A stretch of DNA of 64,000 bases from a phage. The notes under the pieces were generated by a model. That model made no database searches. It had not been told where the DNA came from and saw only the letters and a list, made by a program, of their open reading frames with translations. The position numbers and the translations under genes were made by a program. The DNA is taken from the sequence record PX104380.1. The stretch is one strand, 5' to 3'. Each line of letters begins with the position of its first letter. The first letter of the stretch is position 1. Below, piece by piece: positions 3,874-41,497 of the stretch.

Positions 3874-4133
3874 AAAAGATTCCTTTTAATGTATCTTTTA
3901 GACCATTCTATCATATCATCATAATCTAAAAAGTATTCATCAAATTCAGCCATGCAAACAACACCTTGTGCTGCTTTTGATGTGATATAAATTATTCCAA
4001 CATATCTAGAATCTTCTTCGGTATAATCAATATTTGCTATGAATTCATCATTAATGTCAAATGTCGAAAACTTCACTGTATGCATCCTTAATACAAGATA
4101 CAGCCATATCTCGTAATGATTTAGGTGTGTCAT
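3870..4133 (-). CDS. hypothetical protein (46.1-like); start uncertain
   Basis: Minus-strand ORF in the gene 46-47 gap; overlaps next ORF, so true start is probably internal. Confidence 0.45.
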   Translation of the reverse strand: MTHLNHYEIWLYLVLRMHTVKFSTFDINDEFIANIDYTEEDSRYVGIIYITSKAAQGVVCMAEFDEYFLDYDDMIEWSKRYIKRNLL

Positions 4134-4320
4134 TATCTAAAATGTTGAAGTTAAAAGATACAGCCCAGTCAGTGCAGACCGTGACCTTTTTAATACAATT
4201 ATCTTCAACCTCTAGCGGTTCAAACCAATATTCAATAATTTCTTTATGCCCAATATCATCTTTTACTTCGCATTCAAAATGCTGACTCATCATAACATTT
4301 TTAAATTCATCAAAAGTCAT
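4057..4320 (-). CDS. hypothetical protein (46.2-like)
   Basis: Minus-strand ORF directly downstream of gene 47 with 4-nt overlap. Confidence 0.5.
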   Translation of the reverse strand: MTFDEFKNVMMSQHFECEVKDDIGHKEIIEYWFEPLEVEDNCIKKVTVCTDWAVSFNFNILDNDTPKSLRDMAVSCIKDAYSEVFDI

Positions 4321-23487: not shown

Positions 23488-24501
23488 TCATTTATAATAA
23501 CTTCGATGGTTTTCAAGATAGACCTTCTCAAGGAAGTCATCCCAGAAACTCATATCTACCTTATCAGGCATACCGTTCTTAGAAGCTTCAGTAGATGCTG
23601 CTTCTACTTGATCAACCACATCTTCCAAAAACTCTTGAACTGTTTTAAATGGATGTTTACCCAGCTTCACGTCGAGAATAAATGGAGCATCTTGAAGTGG
23701 ATAAATTAAGTCGCCAGTTTTGTAAATTTCCAATAGTTGGAGTCCACCACGACAAGCATGACTCAAAGCTTTCCAGTCAATGCCTTCATTGGCTTCGGCT
23801 TTACGAGCACGTTCACCGTATTCAGCATCTAATTTGTTCAGTGACTGCTTAAGCTCAATAAGAGAAAGCGTTGTCTGATATTTACGACCCAACACAGTGT
23901 AGAACGTTTGTGGGCCTGTTTTCTCATGATTATGGAACACCCATTCACAGAATTCGTTTTCTGGAAGACGATGCTTAATATCTTCAATTTTAGTGCGACG
24001 TTGTCCTTGTGTTCCATCTTCTCGGTAGACATTCCGTTGATCAGGAATTTGATTAATTACTTTCAACACATCACGTAATGCAGCTAGACGAGAACCTTTA
24101 ACACCATATTTAGAAGCTTGCTTGCGAACATATCCTAAATAGGATTTCATGTTAGTCGTATAAAAACGAGAACGGTTGTCTTGAATAAACTTCCACACAT
24201 CAGGCAAATCAGATTTAACCACTAGTTCAGGTGGAGTGTGTAGCATATCCAATGCTACAGTTTCACCATCTGCTGCTAATTTAAAGAAATATTTAAGACT
24301 GTATAGTTCATGGTCAATATCATCTTTAGTGTTTTTAGATGATGTGTTGTTAGTGTTTTTACTCATGTGCTCTTTGACATTTCCGATAAGAATATCGCGA
24401 GCAGGAGGAACAAAGATTTCTTTAAAATCTACATCAGATTCTGGAGTAGAAATTCCATAAAGATGACTACCAAAATAGCTTTTCATTACTGTTTTCATCA
24501 T
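23488..24501 (-). CDS. Pol-beta-superfamily nucleotidyltransferase-like protein (337 aa)
   Basis: FGSHLYGISTPESDVDF matches the GS-x(9-10)-DxD minimal NTase motif; large helical C-terminal domain. Confidence 0.55.
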   Translation of the reverse strand: MMKTVMKSYFGSHLYGISTPESDVDFKEIFVPPARDILIGNVKEHMSKNTNNTSSKNTKDDIDHELYSLKYFFKLAADGETVALDMLHTPPELVVKSDLPDVWKFIQDNRSRFYTTNMKSYLGYVRKQASKYGVKGSRLAALRDVLKVINQIPDQRNVYREDGTQGQRRTKIEDIKHRLPENEFCEWVFHNHEKTGPQTFYTVLGRKYQTTLSLIELKQSLNKLDAEYGERARKAEANEGIDWKALSHACRGGLQLLEIYKTGDLIYPLQDAPFILDVKLGKHPFKTVQEFLEDVVDQVEAASTEASKNGMPDKVDMSFWDDFLEKVYLENHRSYYK

Positions 24502-24959
24502 TCAGCCTTATATTCAATAACAGGACATACTTTAGCTTTACGAGCTTTTAAAAATTCAACGATAATCGATTTCTTGGGTTGAATAGGAGGTAAACCTTTA
24601 TTTTTCCTATCAATGTTTTCTACGTGTAAAGCATAATCCTTTTTCCATTTATAATCTTTATATTTTTCACGCAAATGTACAGGAATAACAAATGAACCAA
24701 TAATAAGTAAAACAACCAAAAGCGCAAGTATAAATGCTGATGGAAGCAAAGTCCATAAACTACCAAAAATAAGCCAGCGCTGTAAACTTTCTGCACAAAT
24801 AATTGTCAGCCCTACGAGTATAGCACACCCAAAAATAGAAACGAAAAATGTAGGGATAACAATAGACCAAAAGTATGCACATAGCGTCTTAGGTCGTTGC
24901 CATTCATCGTTAAACAATTTGAATAATTTATAGTGCCAAGAGTTTTCATTAATAATCAT
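24498..24959 (-). CDS. integral membrane protein (153 aa)
   Basis: Three predicted hydrophobic helices. Confidence 0.55.
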   Translation of the reverse strand: MIINENSWHYKLFKLFNDEWQRPKTLCAYFWSIVIPTFFVSIFGCAILVGLTIICAESLQRWLIFGSLWTLLPSAFILALLVVLLIIGSFVIPVHLREKYKDYKWKKDYALHVENIDRKNKGLPPIQPKKSIIVEFLKARKAKVCPVIEYKAE

Positions 24960-24961
24960 AA

Positions 24962-25483
24962 TTATCCTTTCATTGAAGGCGTAACGGTTGTTAAATACTT
25001 AATCATAGCTTCAGCTTCTGATTTTGATAATGAAATTTCTCCATTGTTTTGACGAATAGAAATAAAATCCGGATGACGGTCACCACCAGCTTTTAAAACG
25101 CACATATAAGTATCAACTTCGCCTTCAATATTTGAAATGATTGAAGCAGTTCCACATGAATGCGGTTTTTGATAAATCAATGCAGCTTTTCTTCCGCCAT
25201 TTGACTGTTCATAAACTTTTAATACATCAAACAAATCACTTCTTTTATCAATAGCTAAAATGTTATTTTCATCTTCAATGTTAAATCCTTCGGATACTTC
25301 ATAAAGTGTCACCCATAAATCGCCAATATCAATAACAGCGTTCACTTTTCCATGACTTTCAAGAGCATGACAAATTTTCTTGATTTCGTCATAACCCATT
25401 TTAATAATATCATCTCCTTGAATAAGAAAGATGTCATTTTTAAATTCAACACGAATTAAACCACTTCCACTTGAAATAAACAT
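24962..25483 (-). CDS. hypothetical protein, paralog B of tandem pair (173 aa)
   Basis: C-terminus SEAEAMIKYLTTVTPSM parallels DEAIALKNYLDSVIPTM of the upstream gene. Confidence 0.55.
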   Translation of the reverse strand: MFISSGSGLIRVEFKNDIFLIQGDDIIKMGYDEIKKICHALESHGKVNAVIDIGDLWVTLYEVSEGFNIEDENNILAIDKRSDLFDVLKVYEQSNGGRKAALIYQKPHSCGTASIISNIEGEVDTYMCVLKAGGDRHPDFISIRQNNGEISLSKSEAEAMIKYLTTVTPSMKG

Positions 25484-25489
25484 ATTTCC

Positions 25490-26044
25490 TCACTTTGAAA
25501 TCATAGTTGGAATGACAGAATCAAGATAATTCTTTAGCGCAATAGCTTCGTCTTTGGTAAATGTGACAATATGTGCTCGAGAATCATCATTTTGGCGAAC
25601 AAGTACGACATCGCCATCTTCATAAGAAGTCTTGACATCCAAAGTCGTAGTATAGTTTGCAGCTACTGGATTAATAATGCTAGCACCGCGATCTTTAGCC
25701 CATTGAAGTTTAACCTTTTCGGGTGTTTCGACTGTTTCAGATTCCAAGAATTCTTTCACCTTGGTAACGAATGTTGCCCAATTGTTGATAGAAAGACACA
25801 TAAATTCAGTTTCAATATTACCGCCGTAAAGGCCACGATAAAAACGAACTTGGAGGTCGCCTGTAATATTAGTTACACCGGTAACTCCTGAGGGAGCATA
25901 AGATAAAATCGCAGCCAGTTCCATAGGGAGAATAGTAATACTATCGTCTTCCTGCGTCAGAACGTATACATTATCACGTTTTTCGATAACCAGGTCACCG
26001 AACAAATCAGTTGTTTCAATTACAGCTTTCATATTATTTACCAA
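25490..26044 (-). CDS. hypothetical protein, paralog A of tandem pair (184 aa)
   Basis: See paralog B. Confidence 0.55.
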   Translation of the reverse strand: MVNNMKAVIETTDLFGDLVIEKRDNVYVLTQEDDSITILPMELAAILSYAPSGVTGVTNITGDLQVRFYRGLYGGNIETEFMCLSINNWATFVTKVKEFLESETVETPEKVKLQWAKDRGASIINPVAANYTTTLDVKTSYEDGDVVLVRQNDDSRAHIVTFTKDEAIALKNYLDSVIPTMISK

Positions 26045-26219
26045 TTAAAGTTTCAATATAAGAATCAAGATTTACTTTAGCTTCTTCCATAAGAATTTTG
26101 TATTTAATCTTGTTAGCATGTCCGGAGAAAGCTGATTCATCAATAATTGTTGATGTATGAACAGCTCTACTATACGTCTCAATTAATTCTCTTAATTTAA
26201 AAGCCTGCTCACTTGTCAT
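26034..26219 (-). CDS. small helical protein (61 aa), member of small paralog family
   Basis: SEQAFKLRELI...YIETL pattern shared with several small ORFs. Confidence 0.45.
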   Translation of the reverse strand: MTSEQAFKLRELIETYSRAVHTSTIIDESAFSGHANKIKYKILMEEAKVNLDSYIETLIGK

Positions 26220-26323
26220 TACATACTCCTTTGAATAATATCAATAATGTTATTCACCAGATTATAAGTAAACATTGGGTAATTATATTGAATCATCACA
26301 TACACAACAAACAAAACTTTCAT
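26219..26323 (-). CDS. small hydrophobic peptide (34 aa), TAATG-coupled to downstream gene
   Basis: ATG at 26323 preceded by AAGGAGAAGAGA, about 22 nt downstream of predicted transcription start; not in ORF track because of size. Confidence 0.4.
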   Translation of the reverse strand: MKVLFVVYVMIQYNYPMFTYNLVNNIIDIIQRSM

Positions 26324-26351
26324 TCTCTTCTCCTTGGCAGTTGACAAGATT

Positions 26352-26381
26352 ACTATACCATAACCTTGCCAACTTGTAAAC
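26352..26381 (-). promoter_or_regulatory. T4 early-type promoter heading the operon that ends at the NTase gene
   Basis: Minus-strand GTTTACAAGTTGGCAAGGTTATGGTATAGT. Confidence 0.55.
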
Positions 26382-26546
26382 CATTAAATGACGTTTTCGA
26401 TAAAATTCTGAAGCTTTGTATGAGCATCAACCATGATTTTCATTTCTTCCTTTGCGAAAGCTGTGCCTCTTTCACGAGAAGAACATTCATAGTCAGAAAC
26501 TGCATTAGCATATTCTTCAATTAGCTTCATTAAAAACATCTGCTTT

Positions 26547-26741
26547 TCAGTTTTCATTATTCCACCTAATCATTTCAAGATATTGAACTAACTTAGCTTT
26601 GGATTTATCCAAATCCTTTTTAGCTGTTGCTATACCTTCGTATGAATATCCTTCACAATGCTCAACTGCTAATTGATATGAATCTATTTCAACATCACGT
26701 GCTAATTTAATGATTTTTTCAAACTGTTCGTGTGTTAACAT
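26547..26741 (-). CDS. small helical protein (64 aa), small paralog family
   Basis: THEQFEKIIKLA...VQYLEMI pattern. Confidence 0.45.
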   Translation of the reverse strand: MLTHEQFEKIIKLARDVEIDSYQLAVEHCEGYSYEGIATAKKDLDKSKAKLVQYLEMIRWNNEN

Positions 26742-26743
26742 AA

Positions 26744-26983
26744 TTAAACTCTCGTATTATGATCGATAATTTCATCAAGAAACATATCTAACGCTTCTAT
26801 AGCATTATCCACTTTAGTTTCAAAGTCTTTAATGCCTTTATTCGAAATACCCGATGAATACCAAGCAAAGTCAATCAGCTCTTCATCTGCTTTGCGAATT
26901 GAAGCCACTAATTCCTTGATTTTATCTGCTTGCTCTACGCTAATCATTATTCCACCACATATGACAGAGAGAATATTGCACAC
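26744..26983 (-). CDS. small helical protein (79 aa), small paralog family
   Basis: [12 protein letters not shown]...ALDMFLDEI pattern. Confidence 0.45.
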
Positions 26984-27135
26984 GCCATGTGAGTTGCAAC
27001 TTCATCACACATATTATAACGTTTCTTAAGAAGTTCTACAAGTTCTTCACTAGTAACTTCATCCATGTCGACGAAAAAATCACCATTAATGATGACGTAG
27101 ATATTTCCTTCTTGATTGAGTGCTTCAATTTTCAT
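26947..27135 (-). CDS. hypothetical small protein (62 aa from SD-supported start MKIEALN)
   Basis: Early promoter at 27164-27193 excludes the longer listed start; GAGGAGAACATC precedes ATG. Confidence 0.45.
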
Positions 27136-27163
27136 GATGTTCTCCTCTTTATCCGATGGTTGT

Positions 27164-27193
27164 ATAGTATCACAGCTCAAACGGAAAGTAAAC
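27164..27193 (-). promoter_or_regulatory. T4 early-type promoter
   Basis: Minus-strand GTTTACTTTCCGTTTGAGCTGTGATACTAT. Confidence 0.55.
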
Positions 27194-27203
27194 CGGTAAA
27201 ATG

Positions 27204-27226
27204 AAAAAAGTCTCCCGAAGGAGACT
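27204..27226 (-). terminator. rho-independent terminator (UUCG-loop hairpin + U-run)
   Basis: agtctcc-cgaa-ggagact stem, followed on minus transcript by UUUUUUCAU. Confidence 0.7.
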
Positions 27227-27230
27227 AATG

Positions 27231-27617
27231 TTATTCGAGGGAAAGAAGATACTTACTCTGGTAAAACATTCCAGTAATATCATCTATCGTGCTTTGAATG
27301 GCTGGAGGCATTTCTTTATAAATGCTGTTAGATTGGTCTAGTATGCGATCAATCATTTTAATTGTGTCGGTAGGAAGTTTACTGGCATCTGGAATTGAAG
27401 GCGTGTATTTTCTACCAGAATACCCCAAATATTGCTCACCAAATTTATCAATCAAATCTGGCAATTCGGAGAAAATAAAATCGTATGCTTTGTGTCTAGC
27501 ATAACTTTTAGTTTCAAAATGCGCAGAATGAAAATAAGCTTGTGCAGCCATTAATAAACCTAAGTATTCATCTGCCTTTGAAGGTTTTCCACTTTGTGAA
27601 AAGTCGCTGAATTTCAT
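27231..27617 (-). CDS. hypothetical protein adjacent to rI (128 aa)
   Basis: Minus-strand ORF overlapping rI stop by 4 nt. Confidence 0.55.
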
Positions 27618-27907
27618 TCAGTCTCCAATTTAATGTTCATAATTCTAGCGTATGATTGTGCCATCTCCGCGCCTCGTTCTATACATTCGAAATCAGAAGA
27701 GCACGGGTCATTTTTATAGGTCGTTCTCATAAAACTATAGAACTGTTCAGATGATTCTACGCTTTTATTTTCAAAAAGCATATAAACATGTCTAATACCA
27801 GATTCCATAAATTTATCAAAATGAGGATCGACATTCGCTTCAATTGGTGGAGATAAAGCAAATGACAATCCTAGCATGGCAAATAGTGCCGTTGCTTTTA
27901 AGGCCAT
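27614..27907 (-). CDS. rI: lysis-inhibition protein RI (antiholin), 97 aa
   Basis: MALKATALFAMLGLSFALSPPIEANVDPHFDKFMESG... signal-anchor then periplasmic domain, recognised as T4 RI. Confidence 0.9.
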   Translation of the reverse strand: MALKATALFAMLGLSFALSPPIEANVDPHFDKFMESGIRHVYMLFENKSVESSEQFYSFMRTTYKNDPCSSDFECIERGAEMAQSYARIMNIKLETE

Positions 27908-27919
27908 AAAGGCCTCCTA

Positions 27920-28132
27920 TCATTTTTGTCCTGTATTTACTTTATGCCGATGCACGGCCTTAACTTTATCAAGGTATTTTTCAAAATTTCGCAATCTAGT
28001 ATAGTCTGCCGGAGATTGGTTGAGTGATACTTCTCGACGCAAAGCTGAAATGATATTTCCAACTTCCCTACGAATTTCATCTAATTGAAGCACAGTAAGA
28101 TTGCGAAGTTGCTTTTCAGTTAATTGTAGCAT
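27920..28132 (-). CDS. small helical protein (70 aa)
   Basis: Minus-strand ORF between tk and rI. Confidence 0.5.
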
Positions 28133-28174
28133 ATATACCCCTTTAGTTAGATAAACCTATTTATAACTTTTGCA

Positions 28175-28756
28175 CTAACCGAGCTTTTTAGTTAATTCGT
28201 TCCAGTGTTTTCTACACAAAGAAACATAAATTTCATCACCAATACAGATTTGATTACCTTCTTTAACTGGTGTTCCATCTTCCATTAATCGAGCTGTCAT
28301 AATCGCTTTTTTGCCGCAATGACAAACTGCCTTTAGTTCAATAAGTTTATCTGCAATCGCTAAAAGTTCTTTAGAACCTTCAAACAATTTTCCAGCGAAA
28401 TCAGTCCTTAACCCATAAGCCATAACAGGAACATTATATGTATCAACAATTCGACTCAATTGATGCACTTGTTCAGTTTTTAAAAATTGGGCTTCATCTA
28501 CAAATACGCAATGAATATCTTTTTGTGCTTCAGCCCATTTATAGAACTCGAAAATATCCATATCATCTGTAATAATATTCGCTTCCTGTTTAATTCCAAT
28601 GCGAGAAACAACTTCACAGACAGAATCACGAGTATCAATAGCAGGCTTAAGAACTAATACACTCATTCCACGTTCTTTATAATTATGTGCAGCAGTCAAA
28701 AGAGAAGCAGATTTTCCAGCATTCATTGCTGCATAAGTAAAAATTAAACTCGCCAT
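28175..28756 (-). CDS. tk: thymidine kinase (193 aa)
   Basis: P-loop AAMNAGKS, Walker B VFVDEAQF, C-terminal CHCG...C zinc motif. Confidence 0.9.
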   Translation of the reverse strand: MASLIFTYAAMNAGKSASLLTAAHNYKERGMSVLVLKPAIDTRDSVCEVVSRIGIKQEANIITDDMDIFEFYKWAEAQKDIHCVFVDEAQFLKTEQVHQLSRIVDTYNVPVMAYGLRTDFAGKLFEGSKELLAIADKLIELKAVCHCGKKAIMTARLMEDGTPVKEGNQICIGDEIYVSLCRKHWNELTKKLG

Positions 28757-28757
28757 C

Positions 28758-28946
28758 TTAGTCCTTAGTTAAATTTTCTAAATATGTTTCTAAATCATTT
28801 TCAGCTTTATCGATAGATTTTACTAATTCGTAATATGTTTCGGCATCTCCATATTCAGAAGATATTTCAAAAGACAAATCCTTTTCTAAACTAATAATTT
28901 CACCAACTAAAAATAATATTTCGTTCTTTTGTTCGCGAGTAATCAT
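28758..28946 (-). CDS. small helical protein (62 aa), small paralog family
   Basis: TREQKNEILFLVGEI...YLENL. Confidence 0.45.
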   Translation of the reverse strand: MITREQKNEILFLVGEIISLEKDLSFEISSEYGDAETYYELVKSIDKAENDLETYLENLTKD

Positions 28947-29128
28947 AAGGAATTTATATAATCAATGAGTTCTTGTTCTTTATTATCAAATTCTTTGGAA
29001 AGTTCTTCATATTCATTTGCGCTAAAAGGACCGCATTCATTACAAACTTTTTCCAATTCACTATTTTTATCCATAATTTCGTGGATAAGAGAAAAGAGTT
29101 TGTCTTTTTGTTCTTTGCTTAGGCTCAT
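28943..29128 (-). CDS. small helical protein (61 aa), small paralog family
   Basis: SKEQKDKLFSLIHEI...LIDYINSL. Confidence 0.45.
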   Translation of the reverse strand: MSLSKEQKDKLFSLIHEIMDKNSELEKVCNECGPFSANEYEELSKEFDNKEQELIDYINSL

Positions 29129-29294
29129 ATATTAATTTCCAGAAGTTTTAAAATAATTCGCTTTTGCTTAAATATTTCCACAGTTAAATGATCAGTATCT
29201 TTTTGACCAATTCCAATGGCAAAACCTTTATTAACAGCGAGTTCAATTAAATTATCAAGTTCACGTAACACTTCATATTGTAACTCAGAACTAT

Positions 29295-29501
29295 TCATTT
29301 CGGTTTACCTTCTTTAACGAAATCTGGATAAGGATAAAATCCCGAATAAAATCCTTCACCTTTATGATTGATGCATCCTTTATTAGAACAATAGCACCAA
29401 TAATCGAAATCACAAGCCATTTCATCGTTACATAAAGCAAAAACAACCGGCCACTTACACTTTTCACAGTGGGCATTTTTAAGAATACTAGTTTGGCTCA
29501 T
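29295..29501 (-). CDS. small cysteine-rich protein (about 68 aa; start uncertain)
   Basis: Eight Cys in CEKCKW...CNDEMACDFDYWCYCSNKGC. Confidence 0.4.
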   Translation of the reverse strand: MSQTSILKNAHCEKCKWPVVFALCNDEMACDFDYWCYCSNKGCINHKGEGFYSGFYPYPDFVKEGKPK

Positions 29502-29710
29502 AACCATGTAACCTTTAAGCAATATTCTTCTACATGTTGTTTACGACCTTTCTTATCAATAAAGGTATATTCAACGAATGTTCCAATGTAGTCTTTATCT
29601 ACATCATGTGGACTATTAATTGGGCATTTAGTACGGCAAATGCGTTCCCATTGACGAATAATTACTGCTTTGTTTTTAGGATCAAACGGATGTGGGTAAT
29701 GTACTTTCAT
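29498..29710 (-). CDS. hypothetical small protein (70 aa)
   Basis: Minus-strand ORF. Confidence 0.45.
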   Translation of the reverse strand: MKVHYPHPFDPKNKAVIIRQWERICRTKCPINSPHDVDKDYIGTFVEYTFIDKKGRKQHVEEYCLKVTWL

Positions 29711-30161
29711 AATCCACCACTATTAAATCAATATCAGGAGTAAACATGTCGATTAATTTAGAAACCTTATCCCAATCGCCGCCAGCAATACCACAACCTA
29801 TACGTGGAATGTAAATTACTGGTTTAAACAAAAGGGTTTCTGCCTGTAGATTTAATTCTATCATGCAGTTTACTAAAGCACCATAATCAAGATTAGGACC
29901 TGGTTCGTATTGCGTATACAAGTTATAACATATGCCAAACCCATTAGGTTTATGTTTAAAAACAATAGACATATCGCCTAATTTATCACGAGAACCGTAC
30001 TCAGTAGTGGTTTTATCTATTTCTAAAATTTTGGGATAGGCTCTTGCTAATTGACCAGCTACACCACTGCCCATTGTATGAAAACAGTTACACCCGTGCG
30101 CAATAATATTACCTTCAAGAAAGAGGGCGACAATATCGCCCTTGATATATTTTACAATCAT
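29682..30161 (-). CDS. macro-domain (ADP-ribose binding/processing) protein, 159 aa
   Basis: IVALFLEGNIIAHGCNCFHTMGSGVAGQLARAYP resembles the macro-domain glycine-rich ADP-ribose binding region. Confidence 0.55.
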   Translation of the reverse strand: MIVKYIKGDIVALFLEGNIIAHGCNCFHTMGSGVAGQLARAYPKILEIDKTTTEYGSRDKLGDMSIVFKHKPNGFGICYNLYTQYEPGPNLDYGALVNCMIELNLQAETLLFKPVIYIPRIGCGIAGGDWDKVSKLIDMFTPDIDLIVVDYESTLPTSV

Positions 30162-30505
30162 CTAGTACTCAATCCTCGATTATAAGAATCTACTAAACGG
30201 TCAACCATTGAATGACAAGCGGCTTTATCTTTTTCCTCCGCAACTGAACATTCTAGGGTATTCCACTTTTTAGCATATCGTTTTAATAATGTATCGTTTT
30301 TGTATCTGCTTGATTTATCTCTTTCTCCGTCTTTATATGCATATATTAATTTCTGCGCAAATTCAGCTTGGCATGCTTTATTTTTCCCGCAATAATCTGC
30401 CGCAGTGCGGTTCACATACTCCCTAATTTCAGTATATGATGTATCTGCTGACGCATAAGCAGAAAATGAAATTAATCCTATACATAAAACCAAAATTTTA
30501 GTCAT
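30158..30505 (-). CDS. secreted cysteine-containing protein (115 aa, signal peptide)
   Basis: N-terminal MTKILVLCIGLISFSAYASA signal sequence; four Cys. Confidence 0.5.
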   Translation of the reverse strand: MTKILVLCIGLISFSAYASADTSYTEIREYVNRTAADYCGKNKACQAEFAQKLIYAYKDGERDKSSRYKNDTLLKRYAKKWNTLECSVAEEKDKAACHSMVDRLVDSYNRGLSTR

Positions 30506-40871: not shown

Positions 40872-41291
40872 TTACCCTTCATCAACAATAGTATGAGTGT
40901 GGGCATTTACAATTTGCCACCAATCAAAGCGATTAGAACCATACATTGGTTTGTTCTCATTTTCTTTGATAATGTCACGGAGTTCATCTTCGGTAGCGGC
41001 TTTCGCGATTAAATCAGCATACCCACCGCGAGGATAATAATTATCACCCGCAAAAAGTAAAAAGTTCGGTTTAATATTATTGAACTCTTCAAGAGTAATA
41101 ACTTTTCCTGTCGGTTGAACAATCTCTACATATTTATATCCTAATTTTTGAGCAGCATCTACTGCTTCAAGCAGGGTATCATGAGCCCATCCAATTTGGC
41201 AATCTGGCTTTTCAGATGGATTAGCCTGATAATCCGCGTACACTTTATACATTCTATTCACCTTTAGAAATTTTATCCATAACGATAGCAA
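40872..41291 (-). CDS. hypothetical protein (139 aa)
   Basis: Minus-strand ORF. Confidence 0.55.
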   Translation of the reverse strand: MLSLWIKFLKVNRMYKVYADYQANPSEKPDCQIGWAHDTLLEAVDAAQKLGYKYVEIVQPTGKVITLEEFNNIKPNFLLFAGDNYYPRGGYADLIAKAATEDELRDIIKENENKPMYGSNRFDWWQIVNAHTHTIVDEG

Positions 41292-41439
41292 TTAAACCAA
41301 TTAAAAATGCTACTACAAGTGAAAAAACATTTTCTGCTGTAGTCAATAATCCGCATATAAATCCAACAAACATTGAAAAACTAAAAGCAGAAGCAGAAAT
41401 TGCAATAGCAACATTTCGAATTAATTCACAGCGTTTCAT
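41254..41439 (-). CDS. small membrane protein (61 aa)
   Basis: Hydrophobic; SD GAGGAGAATAAA; early promoter upstream. Confidence 0.5.
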   Translation of the reverse strand: MKRCELIRNVAIAISASAFSFSMFVGFICGLLTTAENVFSLVVAFLIGLIAIVMDKISKGE

Positions 41440-41467
41440 TTTATTCTCCTCAGTAGTTGATAGGGTA

Positions 41468-41497
41468 ATAGTATCACAACTAAAACCCTATGTAAAC
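41468..41497 (-). promoter_or_regulatory. T4 early-type promoter
   Basis: Minus-strand GTTTACATAGGGTTTTAGTTGTGATACTAT. Confidence 0.55.

What the first reader, a model, noticed from the sequence alone, without database searches (positions are those of the whole stretch)
26034..29128. Dispersed family of 60-80 aa helical proteins with a shared N-terminal (S/T)xEQxxK(I/L)xxL motif
At least five small ORFs (26034-26219, 26547-26741, 26744-26983, 28758-28946, 28943-29128) share the same architecture: an N-terminal EQ..K..L motif, charged helices, and a C-terminal YLE/YIE-x-L motif. The gene at 27920-28132 may be a sixth member. Such small early proteins in T-even phages are typical host-takeover or anti-defence inhibitors, and multiplicity suggests diversification against different targets.
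Basis: seen in the sequence. Interest (0 to 1): 0.45.

Follow-up and report, generated by a model that had tools for sequence, protein, structure and literature searches.

The report
Six small helical-hairpin phage proteins (DUF7438)
A T4-like phage carries six copies of a tiny two-helix protein family that is real and made early in infection, but it is already catalogued (Pfam DUF7438; T4 genes tk.1, tk.2, mobD.3, mobD.4) and nobody knows what it does.

Summary
The window is a Tequatrovirus (99.6% identical to phage ECP52). All five listed ORFs match one curated Pfam family, DUF7438 (PF24219), at 54-69 bits against a cut-off of 25. They correspond to T4 tk.2, tk.1, mobD.4 and mobD.3, plus one gene that T4 lacks. 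The proposed sixth member, rI.1 (27920-28132), is not a member. The true sixth is 26384-26557, a full-length mobD.2a that is frameshifted in T4. Leave-one-out profiles and shuffling show the similarity is not a composition effect. The shared motifs are fold determinants: a helix N-cap and the heptad core of a 60-aa antiparallel helical hairpin (AlphaFold pLDDT 90). Published T4 data show early expression, detected proteins, and no fitness cost on knock-down or deletion. Copy number and alleles vary widely between near-identical phages. Most Tequatroviruses replace the tk.2+tk.1 pair with a single allele only 56% identical to tk.2. No function is known and none can be inferred from the fold. 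An accessory binder of host or defence proteins is the most plausible role, but it is unproven. The family is already known, so interest is low to moderate.

The parts
28943..29128 (-). tk.2 orthologue, 61 aa, DUF7438 member (T4-type allele)
   Evidence: Pfam PF24219 at 68.6 bits. It is 97% identical to T4 Tk.2 with dN/dS 0.05. The AF2 model is a hairpin with helices H5-30 and H36-60 at pLDDT 89.9. Its ATGA overlaps link it to the genes on both sides.
28758..28946 (-). tk.1 orthologue, 62 aa, DUF7438 member, immediately upstream of tk
   Evidence: Pfam 55.6 bits. It is 100% identical to T4 Tk.1. hhalign to tk.2 gives 90% probability, E 1.6e-6. Its stop codon lies 1 nt before the tk ATG.
26744..26947 (-). 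mobD.4 orthologue, 67 aa from the ATG at 26947, DUF7438 member
   Evidence: Pfam 58 bits. It is 73% identical to T4 MobD.4, with a 7-aa indel in the loop, and dN/dS is 0.14. RefSeq annotates the same start.
26547..26741 (-). mobD.3 orthologue, 64 aa, DUF7438 member
   Evidence: Pfam 57 bits. It is 89% identical to T4 MobD.3.
26384..26557 (-).
   Evidence: Pfam 56.5 bits and phrog_2758. In T4 this gene is frameshifted to 38 aa, and its C-terminal half is readable in another frame.
26034..26219 (-). 61-aa DUF7438 member with no T4 counterpart (phrog_4859, mislabelled 'helicase loader')
   Evidence: Pfam 53.7 bits. It is absent from the T4 map and present in 193 phage records.
27160..27194 (-). 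Early promoter-like site upstream of mobD.5, serving mobD.5-mobD.4-mobD.3-mobD.2a
   Evidence: The sequence reads GTTTAC, 17-18 nt, TG-n-TACTAT, directly after the rI.-1 terminator. A mobD.5 promoter and a RegB-insensitive transcript are documented for T4 (PMC1702504).
27209..27226 (-). Intrinsic terminator after rI.-1, separating the two transcription units
   Evidence: Stem AGTCTCC-TTCG-GGAGACT followed by a T-run. It is also annotated in phage G4507.
26352..26380 (-). Promoter-like site upstream of mobD.2 and the 26034-26219 member
   Evidence: TTTACA, 17 nt, TATAGT with an upstream TG, matching 10 of 12 positions. This is a consensus match only.

Best explanation
These are six paralogues of one phage-specific protein family, Pfam DUF7438. 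They arose by tandem duplication in two hyperplastic early regions that flank the rI-tk genes of a T4-type phage. Each protein is a roughly 60-residue, usually acidic, antiparallel two-helix hairpin.

The shared N-terminal (S/T)xEQ motif is a helix N-cap. The I/L..L(I/V) and L..(Y/F)(L/I)..(L/I) motifs are the a/d(/e) core positions that zip the two helices together at the open end. These motifs therefore define the fold. The loop and the adjoining helix surfaces are what differ between paralogues and between alleles.

Shown: homology, fold class, early expression, protein detection in T4, dispensability in laboratory hosts, and rapid gain, loss and allele replacement.

Inferred, not shown: each hairpin acts stoichiometrically as a small binding module. 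It would probably act after self-pairing into a four-helix bundle, or by docking its conserved hydrophobic open end onto a partner. Its role would be to modulate a host or defence-system protein early in infection, with different paralogues or alleles addressing different partners or host strains. This matches the accessory 'monkey-wrench' role proposed for many T4 immediate-early genes.
For: Family membership: Pfam PF24219 at 54-69 bits for all six, PHROGs 653/4859/2758 with cross-hits between them, leave-one-out E 1e-3 to 6e-7, and 0 of 2000 shuffles reaching the real score.

Fold: AF2 pLDDT 89.9 with two helices. Hydrophobic positions 11, 14, 15, 18, 21, 25 and 40, 43, 47, 50, 54, 57, 58, 61 form heptads, with Ala favoured at 21 and 50.

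Expression: T4 MobD.3 and MobD.4 are early RNA and early protein; Tk.1 and Tk.2 are early RNA and middle protein (PMC9697503 supplement). There is a mobD.5 early promoter (PMC1702504; sequence).

Dispensability: CRISPRi-ART scores tk.1, tk.2, mobD.2a, mobD.3 and mobD.4 as 'Not Fit' (PMC11879866 supplement). The nrdC.11-mobD.3 segment is deletable (PMC9825161). mobD.2a is a frameshifted pseudogene in T4.

Purifying selection where it can be measured: tk.2 dN/dS 0.05 and mobD.4 0.14.

Turnover: copies near tk number 6 in this window, 4 plus a pseudogene in T4, 4 in Mosigvirus, 2 in Dhakavirus and Gaprivervirus, and 1-2 in Klebsiella and Enterobacter T4-likes. Orthologues occur in 193 to 742 phage records depending on the paralogue. 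In CAM-21, whose flanks are 96-99% identical, the tk.2+tk.1 pair is replaced by one allele 56% identical to tk.2. Natural tk.2N::tk.1C hybrids exist. Within-orthologue variation and indels concentrate around the hairpin loop.

The review PMC6071114 describes such deletable immediate-early small genes as host-metabolism 'monkey wrenches'.
Confidence: 0.45

Rival explanations
1. The hairpins are accessory subunits or modulators of the phage's own machinery. One candidate is thymidine kinase or the dNTP-synthesising complex. Another is the neighbouring lysis-inhibition genes rI.-1, rI and rI.1. On this reading they are not effectors aimed at the host.
For: A DUF7438 gene sits directly upstream of tk, with a stop/start junction of 0-10 nt, in Tequatro-, Mosig-, Dhaka-, Gapriver-, Kanagawa- and Marfavirus and in a Klebsiella T4-like phage. 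Both clusters flank the rI locus. Tk.1 and Tk.2 share tk's expression class.
Against: T4-like genomes are broadly collinear, so conserved adjacency is weak evidence. Bragavirus and Krischvirus keep tk and rI without any nearby member. The family also occurs in an unrelated ~50-kb phage contig with RecT/YqaJ genes and no tk nearby. tk itself is non-essential, and the members vary in number and allele while tk stays 99% conserved.
Confidence: 0.15
2. The proteins are Rop-like nucleic-acid (RNA) binding dimers that regulate phage or host transcripts.
Against: Rop ranks only 16th among 2004 equally generic hairpin matches. A family profile finds no Rop or any other PDB sequence at E < 0.05. The family is acidic, with mean net charge -6, and has no conserved basic surface positions.
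Confidence: 0.05
3. The genes are near-neutral passengers of hyperplastic regions. They would be maintained by linkage, translational coupling or duplication dynamics, and would make little functional contribution.
For: There is no fitness effect on knock-down. The segment is deletable. One copy is a pseudogene in T4. Presence varies widely between phages.
Against: Reading frames, length and fold-defining residues are kept across at least seven genera and in unrelated metagenomic phages. Purifying selection acts on tk.2 and mobD.4. The proteins are made and detected in T4.
Confidence: 0.2

Closest known systems
Pfam PF24219 (DUF7438); T4 genes tk.1, tk.2, mobD.3, mobD.4 and mobD.2a; PHROGs 653, 4859 and 2758
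   Same: All six ORFs are full-length members above the curated threshold. Four are 73-100% identical to the named T4 proteins.
   Different: This phage carries two more intact copies than T4: a full-length mobD.2a and the 26034-26219 gene. PHROGs splits the family into three groups, whereas Pfam and my profile tests unite them.
ColE1 Rop/Rom (63-aa helical hairpin that forms a dimeric four-helix bundle and binds RNA kissing complexes)
   Different: There is no detectable sequence relationship. The structural match is no better than to thousands of unrelated hairpins. Dimerisation and RNA binding are untested here.
Small non-essential T4 immediate-early 'monkey-wrench' proteins such as Stp, Arn, Dmd, Srd and TifA, as a functional class (PMC6071114)
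   Same: Early expression, small size, location in deletable regions, dispensability on laboratory hosts, and patchy distribution among T-even phages.
   Different: Those proteins have known targets and unrelated folds and sequences. No target is known for any DUF7438 protein.

Membership tests
Pfam DUF7438 (PF24219) | Whole-protein score above the curated gathering threshold (25 bits), with a full-length match to the 57-position model | tested here: met
   The six ORFs score 53.7-68.6 bits over model positions 1-56/57. rI.1, mobD.5 and the 57-aa ORF at 29125-29298 have no hit.
Pfam DUF7438 (PF24219) | Mutual homology of the members, independent of the Pfam model | tested here: met
   Leave-one-subfamily-out HMMs recover each member at E 1e-3 to 6e-7, with the next unrelated ORF at E >= 0.06. 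None of 2000 shuffles reaches the real score. The best hhalign pairs reach 46-90% probability, and other pairs are weak.
Pfam DUF7438 (PF24219) | Two-helix hairpin of about 60 residues | tested here: met
   The AF2 model of tk.2 has helices H5-30 and H36-60 at pLDDT 89.9. Only one paralogue was modelled.
Rop/Rom family | Sequence similarity to Rop | tested here: not met
   A profile of 40 family members searched against all PDB sequences, which include Rop, found no Rop hit at E <= 10.
Rop/Rom family | Homodimeric four-helix bundle that binds RNA loop-loop complexes | not testable with these tools
   Only single-chain prediction was available. The natural tandem-domain protein P0140 gave an inconclusive model at pLDDT 69.
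Helicase loader (the label carried by phrog_4859 and some GenBank and RefSeq records for the 26034-26219 gene) | Similarity to a known helicase-loader family | tested here: not met
   Pfam and NCBIfam give only DUF7438 and no loader family. At 61 aa it is too small to be a T4 gp59-type or DnaC-type loader (my own knowledge).
Molybdopterin-guanine dinucleotide biosynthesis protein MobD (the RefSeq label on mobD.4) | Similarity to a molybdenum-cofactor biosynthesis family | tested here: not met
   Only DUF7438 matches. The name is a mis-expansion of the T4 locus name mobD, which denotes a mobile homing endonuclease.
Known anti-phage defence or anti-defence proteins | Profile match to a catalogued system component | tested here: not met
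   PADLOC gives no significant hit. The best PDB sequence hit, labelled 'Anti-CRISPR protein', has E 0.079 and is not significant. Dedicated anti-defence libraries were not available.

The most novel reading that the evidence does not exclude
DUF7438 could be a diversifying family of small hairpin inhibitors in an arms race with host immunity or strain-specific host factors. The site directly upstream of tk would then be a swappable 'cassette' whose allele helps set host range: a tk.2+tk.1 pair, a single divergent tk.2, or a hybrid. The conserved open end of the hairpin would be the scaffold or dimer interface, and the variable loop-proximal surface would be the specificity determinant.
Probability: 0.3. 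Interest if true: 0.55.

Novelty: already known. Interest (0 to 1): 0.25.

Why it matters
T4 is the best-studied large lytic phage, yet about half of its genes, mostly small early ones, have no function. This analysis shows that five T4 'hypothetical' loci and one extra gene are a single hairpin family. That family varies in copy number and allele between near-identical phages, which narrows the experimental problem: one fold, six to eight variants, and one polymorphic locus next to tk. If the variants prove to be inhibitors of host or defence proteins, they would add a compact scaffold to the anti-defence repertoire and help explain host-range differences among therapeutic T4-like phages. As it stands, the result mainly tidies annotation. 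It unites three PHROGs, identifies a T4 pseudogene, and flags two misleading product names.

Tried and rejected
- **rI.1 as a member:** rejected.
- **More members elsewhere in the window:** none found with either a six-sequence or a 40-sequence profile. The best other ORF, 41254-41487, reaches only E 0.2-1.4.
- **Function from sequence:** PDB sequences, NCBIfam and PADLOC gave nothing significant.
- **Function from fusions:** the longer relatives P0129 and P0143 have C-terminal extensions with no Pfam match. P0044 is a read-through fusion. P0140 is a tandem double domain, but its single-sequence model was poor at pLDDT 69.
- **Literature:** searches for DUF7438, the gene names and the PHROG ids found no functional study.
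- **The search for related loci with the family alignment:** failed because no stretch was conserved enough.
- **The motif as a nucleotide-level signal:** rejected, because the codons differ synonymously.
- **A strict functional link to tk:** weakened, because Bragavirus and Krischvirus have no nearby member.
Full report
**Identity of the window.** The region 25400-30200 is 99.6% identical to Escherichia phage ECP52 and 99.5% identical to phage vB_EcoM_G4507, both Tequatrovirus. It matches 709 phage records in total. Comparison with the annotated G4507 and T4 maps gives this minus-strand gene order, in the direction of transcription: vs.1, vs, tk.4, tk.3, a 68-aa zinc-binding protein, a 57-aa ORF, tk.2 (28943-29128), tk.1 (28758-28946), tk, rI.1 (27920-28132), rI, rI.-1, a terminator, mobD.5, mobD.4 (26744-26947), mobD.3 (26547-26741), mobD.2a (26384-26557), mobD.2, a 61-aa gene absent from T4 (26034-26219), and then two MobD.1-like genes.

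**Checking the observation.** Scores are 53.7-68.6 bits against a gathering threshold of 25. rI.1, mobD.5 and the 57-aa ORF do not match. PHROGs splits the six into phrog_653 (tk.1, tk.2, mobD.3, mobD.4), phrog_4859 (26034-26219) and phrog_2758 (mobD.2a), with weaker cross-hits between the groups.

- Direct pairwise BLAST gives collinear end-to-end alignments at 22-32% identity.
- A profile built from five subfamilies always ranks the left-out member first among non-training ORFs of the window (679 stop-to-stop ORFs). The left-out member scores E 1e-3 to 6e-7, and the best unrelated ORF scores E >= 0.06.
- None of 2000 shuffles of each member reaches its real score, and rI.1 scores <= 3.2 bits.
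- hhalign between narrow subfamily profiles gives 90% probability for tk.1 with tk.2, and 46-64% for the pairs 26034-26219 with mobD.2a, mobD.3 with tk.1, mobD.3 with tk.2, and mobD.4 with tk.1. Other pairs are weak.
- The motif codons differ synonymously between paralogues, so the conservation is at the protein level.
- A 40-sequence family profile finds no additional member in the 64-kb window.

rI.1 is out. mobD.2a is in. mobD.4 starts at the ATG at 26947, not at the upstream GTG.

**Anatomy.** AlphaFold2 run on a 25-sequence alignment models tk.2 as two helices, residues 5-30 and 36-60, joined by a short loop. Mean pLDDT is 89.9. Column statistics over 40 diverse members show an invariant start, with M followed by I/L and then T/S. 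E and Q follow, giving the pattern of a helix N-cap box. Hydrophobic residues sit at positions 11, 14, 15, 18, 21 and 25 in helix 1 and at 40, 43, 47, 50, 54, 57, 58 and 61 in helix 2. This is a heptad a/d pattern with Ala favoured mid-helix, and with a/d/e doublets (14/15 and 57/58) at the open end where the two termini meet.

Polar surface positions, the loop and the loop-proximal helix turns are variable. The family is acidic, with mean net charge -6 (this window: -1 to -10). Within orthologous groups, substitutions and indels concentrate around the loop, most clearly in mobD.4 and tk.2.

**Distribution.** An exhaustive profile search of 1.84 billion representative proteins found only 46 clusters at E <= 1e-3. 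Named members come from Tequatrovirus, Mosigvirus and T4-like phages such as vB_EcoM_VR25. Unnamed ones come from metagenomic phage contigs. One of these is a ~50-kb contig with RecT/YqaJ genes, in which a 133-aa protein carrying the domain lies next to an HNH endonuclease. Another is a contig of small genes with a dCMP deaminase.

Scanning fetched loci with the family profile gives these counts near tk:

| Phage or genus | Members near tk |
|---|---|
| This window and G4507 | 6 |
| T4 | 4 intact plus a frameshifted mobD.2a |
| Mosigvirus | 4 |
| Dhakavirus JS98 | 2 |
| Gaprivervirus VR26 | 2 |
| Marfavirus | 1-2 |
| Klebsiella phage Roth68 | 1 |
| Kanagawavirus | 1 (+1 marginal) |
| Bragavirus | 0 |
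| Krischvirus | 0 |

tblastn across 50,697 phage records finds orthologues in these numbers of records:

| Gene | Records with an orthologue |
|---|---|
| 26034-26219 | 193 |
| mobD.2a | 643 |
| mobD.3 | 586 |
| mobD.4 | 505 |
| tk.1 | 195 |
| tk.2 | 742 |

For tk.2, only 169 records are >= 80% identical and 573 are below 60%. Phage CAM-21 shows what this means. Its flanks are 96-99% identical to the window, but the tk.2+tk.1 pair is replaced by a single allele that is 55.7% identical to tk.2 and resembles the JS98 tk.2. Natural hybrids that join the N-terminal helix of tk.2 to the C-terminal helix of tk.1 also exist, for example in phage UFV-AREG1. The site just upstream of tk is therefore a polymorphic cassette shaped by unequal crossing-over and allele replacement.

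**Expression and dispensability (published T4 data).**
- Time-resolved transcriptome and proteome data class MobD.3 and MobD.4 as early RNA and early protein, and Tk.1 and Tk.2 as early RNA and middle protein. MobD.2a protein was not detected, which fits its being a pseudogene in T4 (PMC9697503 supplement).
- A mobD.5 promoter and a RegB-insensitive transcript are documented (PMC1702504). In the window, the corresponding GTTTAC...TACTAT element follows the rI.-1 terminator. A second promoter-like site precedes mobD.2 and the 26034-26219 gene.
- Most junctions are ATGA or similar overlaps, which suggests translational coupling.
- CRISPRi-ART knock-down of tk.1, tk.2, mobD.2a, mobD.3 and mobD.4 scored 'Not Fit' (PMC11879866 supplement).
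- Genome reduction removed nrdC.11-mobD.3 from viable T4 (PMC9825161).
- Against T4, tk.2 has 7 synonymous and 2 non-synonymous differences (dN/dS 0.05). mobD.4 has dN/dS 0.14. mobD.3 has 2 synonymous and 7 non-synonymous differences (0.78), too few to interpret.

The best-supported reading is therefore by class. These are early, small, acidic, dispensable, rapidly turning-over accessory proteins. They most likely act as stoichiometric binders of host or defence proteins, with the conserved hairpin as scaffold and the variable surface giving specificity. I put this at about 0.45. The rivals are modulators of phage-encoded partners such as Tk or the lysis-inhibition proteins (0.15, resting mainly on conserved adjacency), near-neutral passengers (0.2), and Rop-like RNA binders (0.05).

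**Novelty.** The family, its members in T4 and its fold class are already in public resources. What I add is modest. The three PHROGs and five T4 loci are unified. T4 mobD.2a is recognised as a decayed member. The tk-upstream cassette polymorphism is described. The motifs are shown to be structural. The product names 'helicase loader' and 'molybdopterin-guanine dinucleotide biosynthesis protein MobD' are shown to be unsupported.

Noticed in passing
window 26384-26557; L002 (T4) 3994-4178: T4 mobD.2a (38 aa) is a frameshift-truncated copy of the intact 57-aa gene in this window. Its C-terminal half (KEEMKIMVDAHTKLQNFIENVI) is still readable in another frame in T4, and the T4 protein was not detected by proteomics.
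   Followed up: yes
window 28758-29128; L015 (phage CAM-21) 1201-1386: The tk.2+tk.1 pair is replaced by a single tk.2 allele, 55.7% identical, in CAM-21, although its flanking DNA is 96-99% identical. tblastn finds tk.2 matches below 60% identity in 573 of 742 records. Hybrid tk.2N::tk.1C genes also occur (P0029, P0086).
   Followed up: partly
window 26744-26947 and 26034-26219: Public annotations are misleading. mobD.4 is called 'molybdopterin-guanine dinucleotide biosynthesis protein MobD', a mis-expansion of the homing-endonuclease locus name mobD. The 61-aa gene is called 'helicase loader', via phrog_4859. Neither name has any profile support.
   Followed up: yes
window 24962-25483 and 25490-26032: Two tandem paralogues of the T4 MobD.1 (y05I-like) putative transcription factor are present, each with Pfam T4_y05I_N plus T4_y05I_C. 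T4 has one copy. This window has no mobD homing endonuclease and instead carries a 153-aa predicted membrane protein at 24498-24959.
   Followed up: partly
window 29125-29501: Two genes lie between tk.2 and tk.3 that T4 lacks at this position. One is a 57-aa ORF (phrog_3452). The other is a 68-aa, 7-Cys protein matching Pfam PF23895 (Phage zinc binding domain).
   Followed up: partly
window 29682-30161: The tk.4 macro-domain ('A1pp phosphatase') protein is only 57% identical to T4 Tk.4 (dS 1.76), while the neighbouring vs and tk.3 genes are 96-99% identical. This is another allelic replacement within the same early region.
   Followed up: no
L003 8001-8402 (metagenomic ~50-kb phage contig): A 133-aa protein with an N-terminal DUF7438 domain and an uncharacterised C-terminal extension lies in the early region of a non-T4-like phage that has RecT/YqaJ genes, next to an HNH endonuclease. 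The domain is therefore not restricted to T4-like phages.
   Followed up: partly
P0140 (JGI metagenome, 119 aa): This single polypeptide has two DUF7438 stretches in tandem, which hints that hairpins may pair. The single-sequence AF2 model was low-confidence (pLDDT 69) with three helices.
   Followed up: partly
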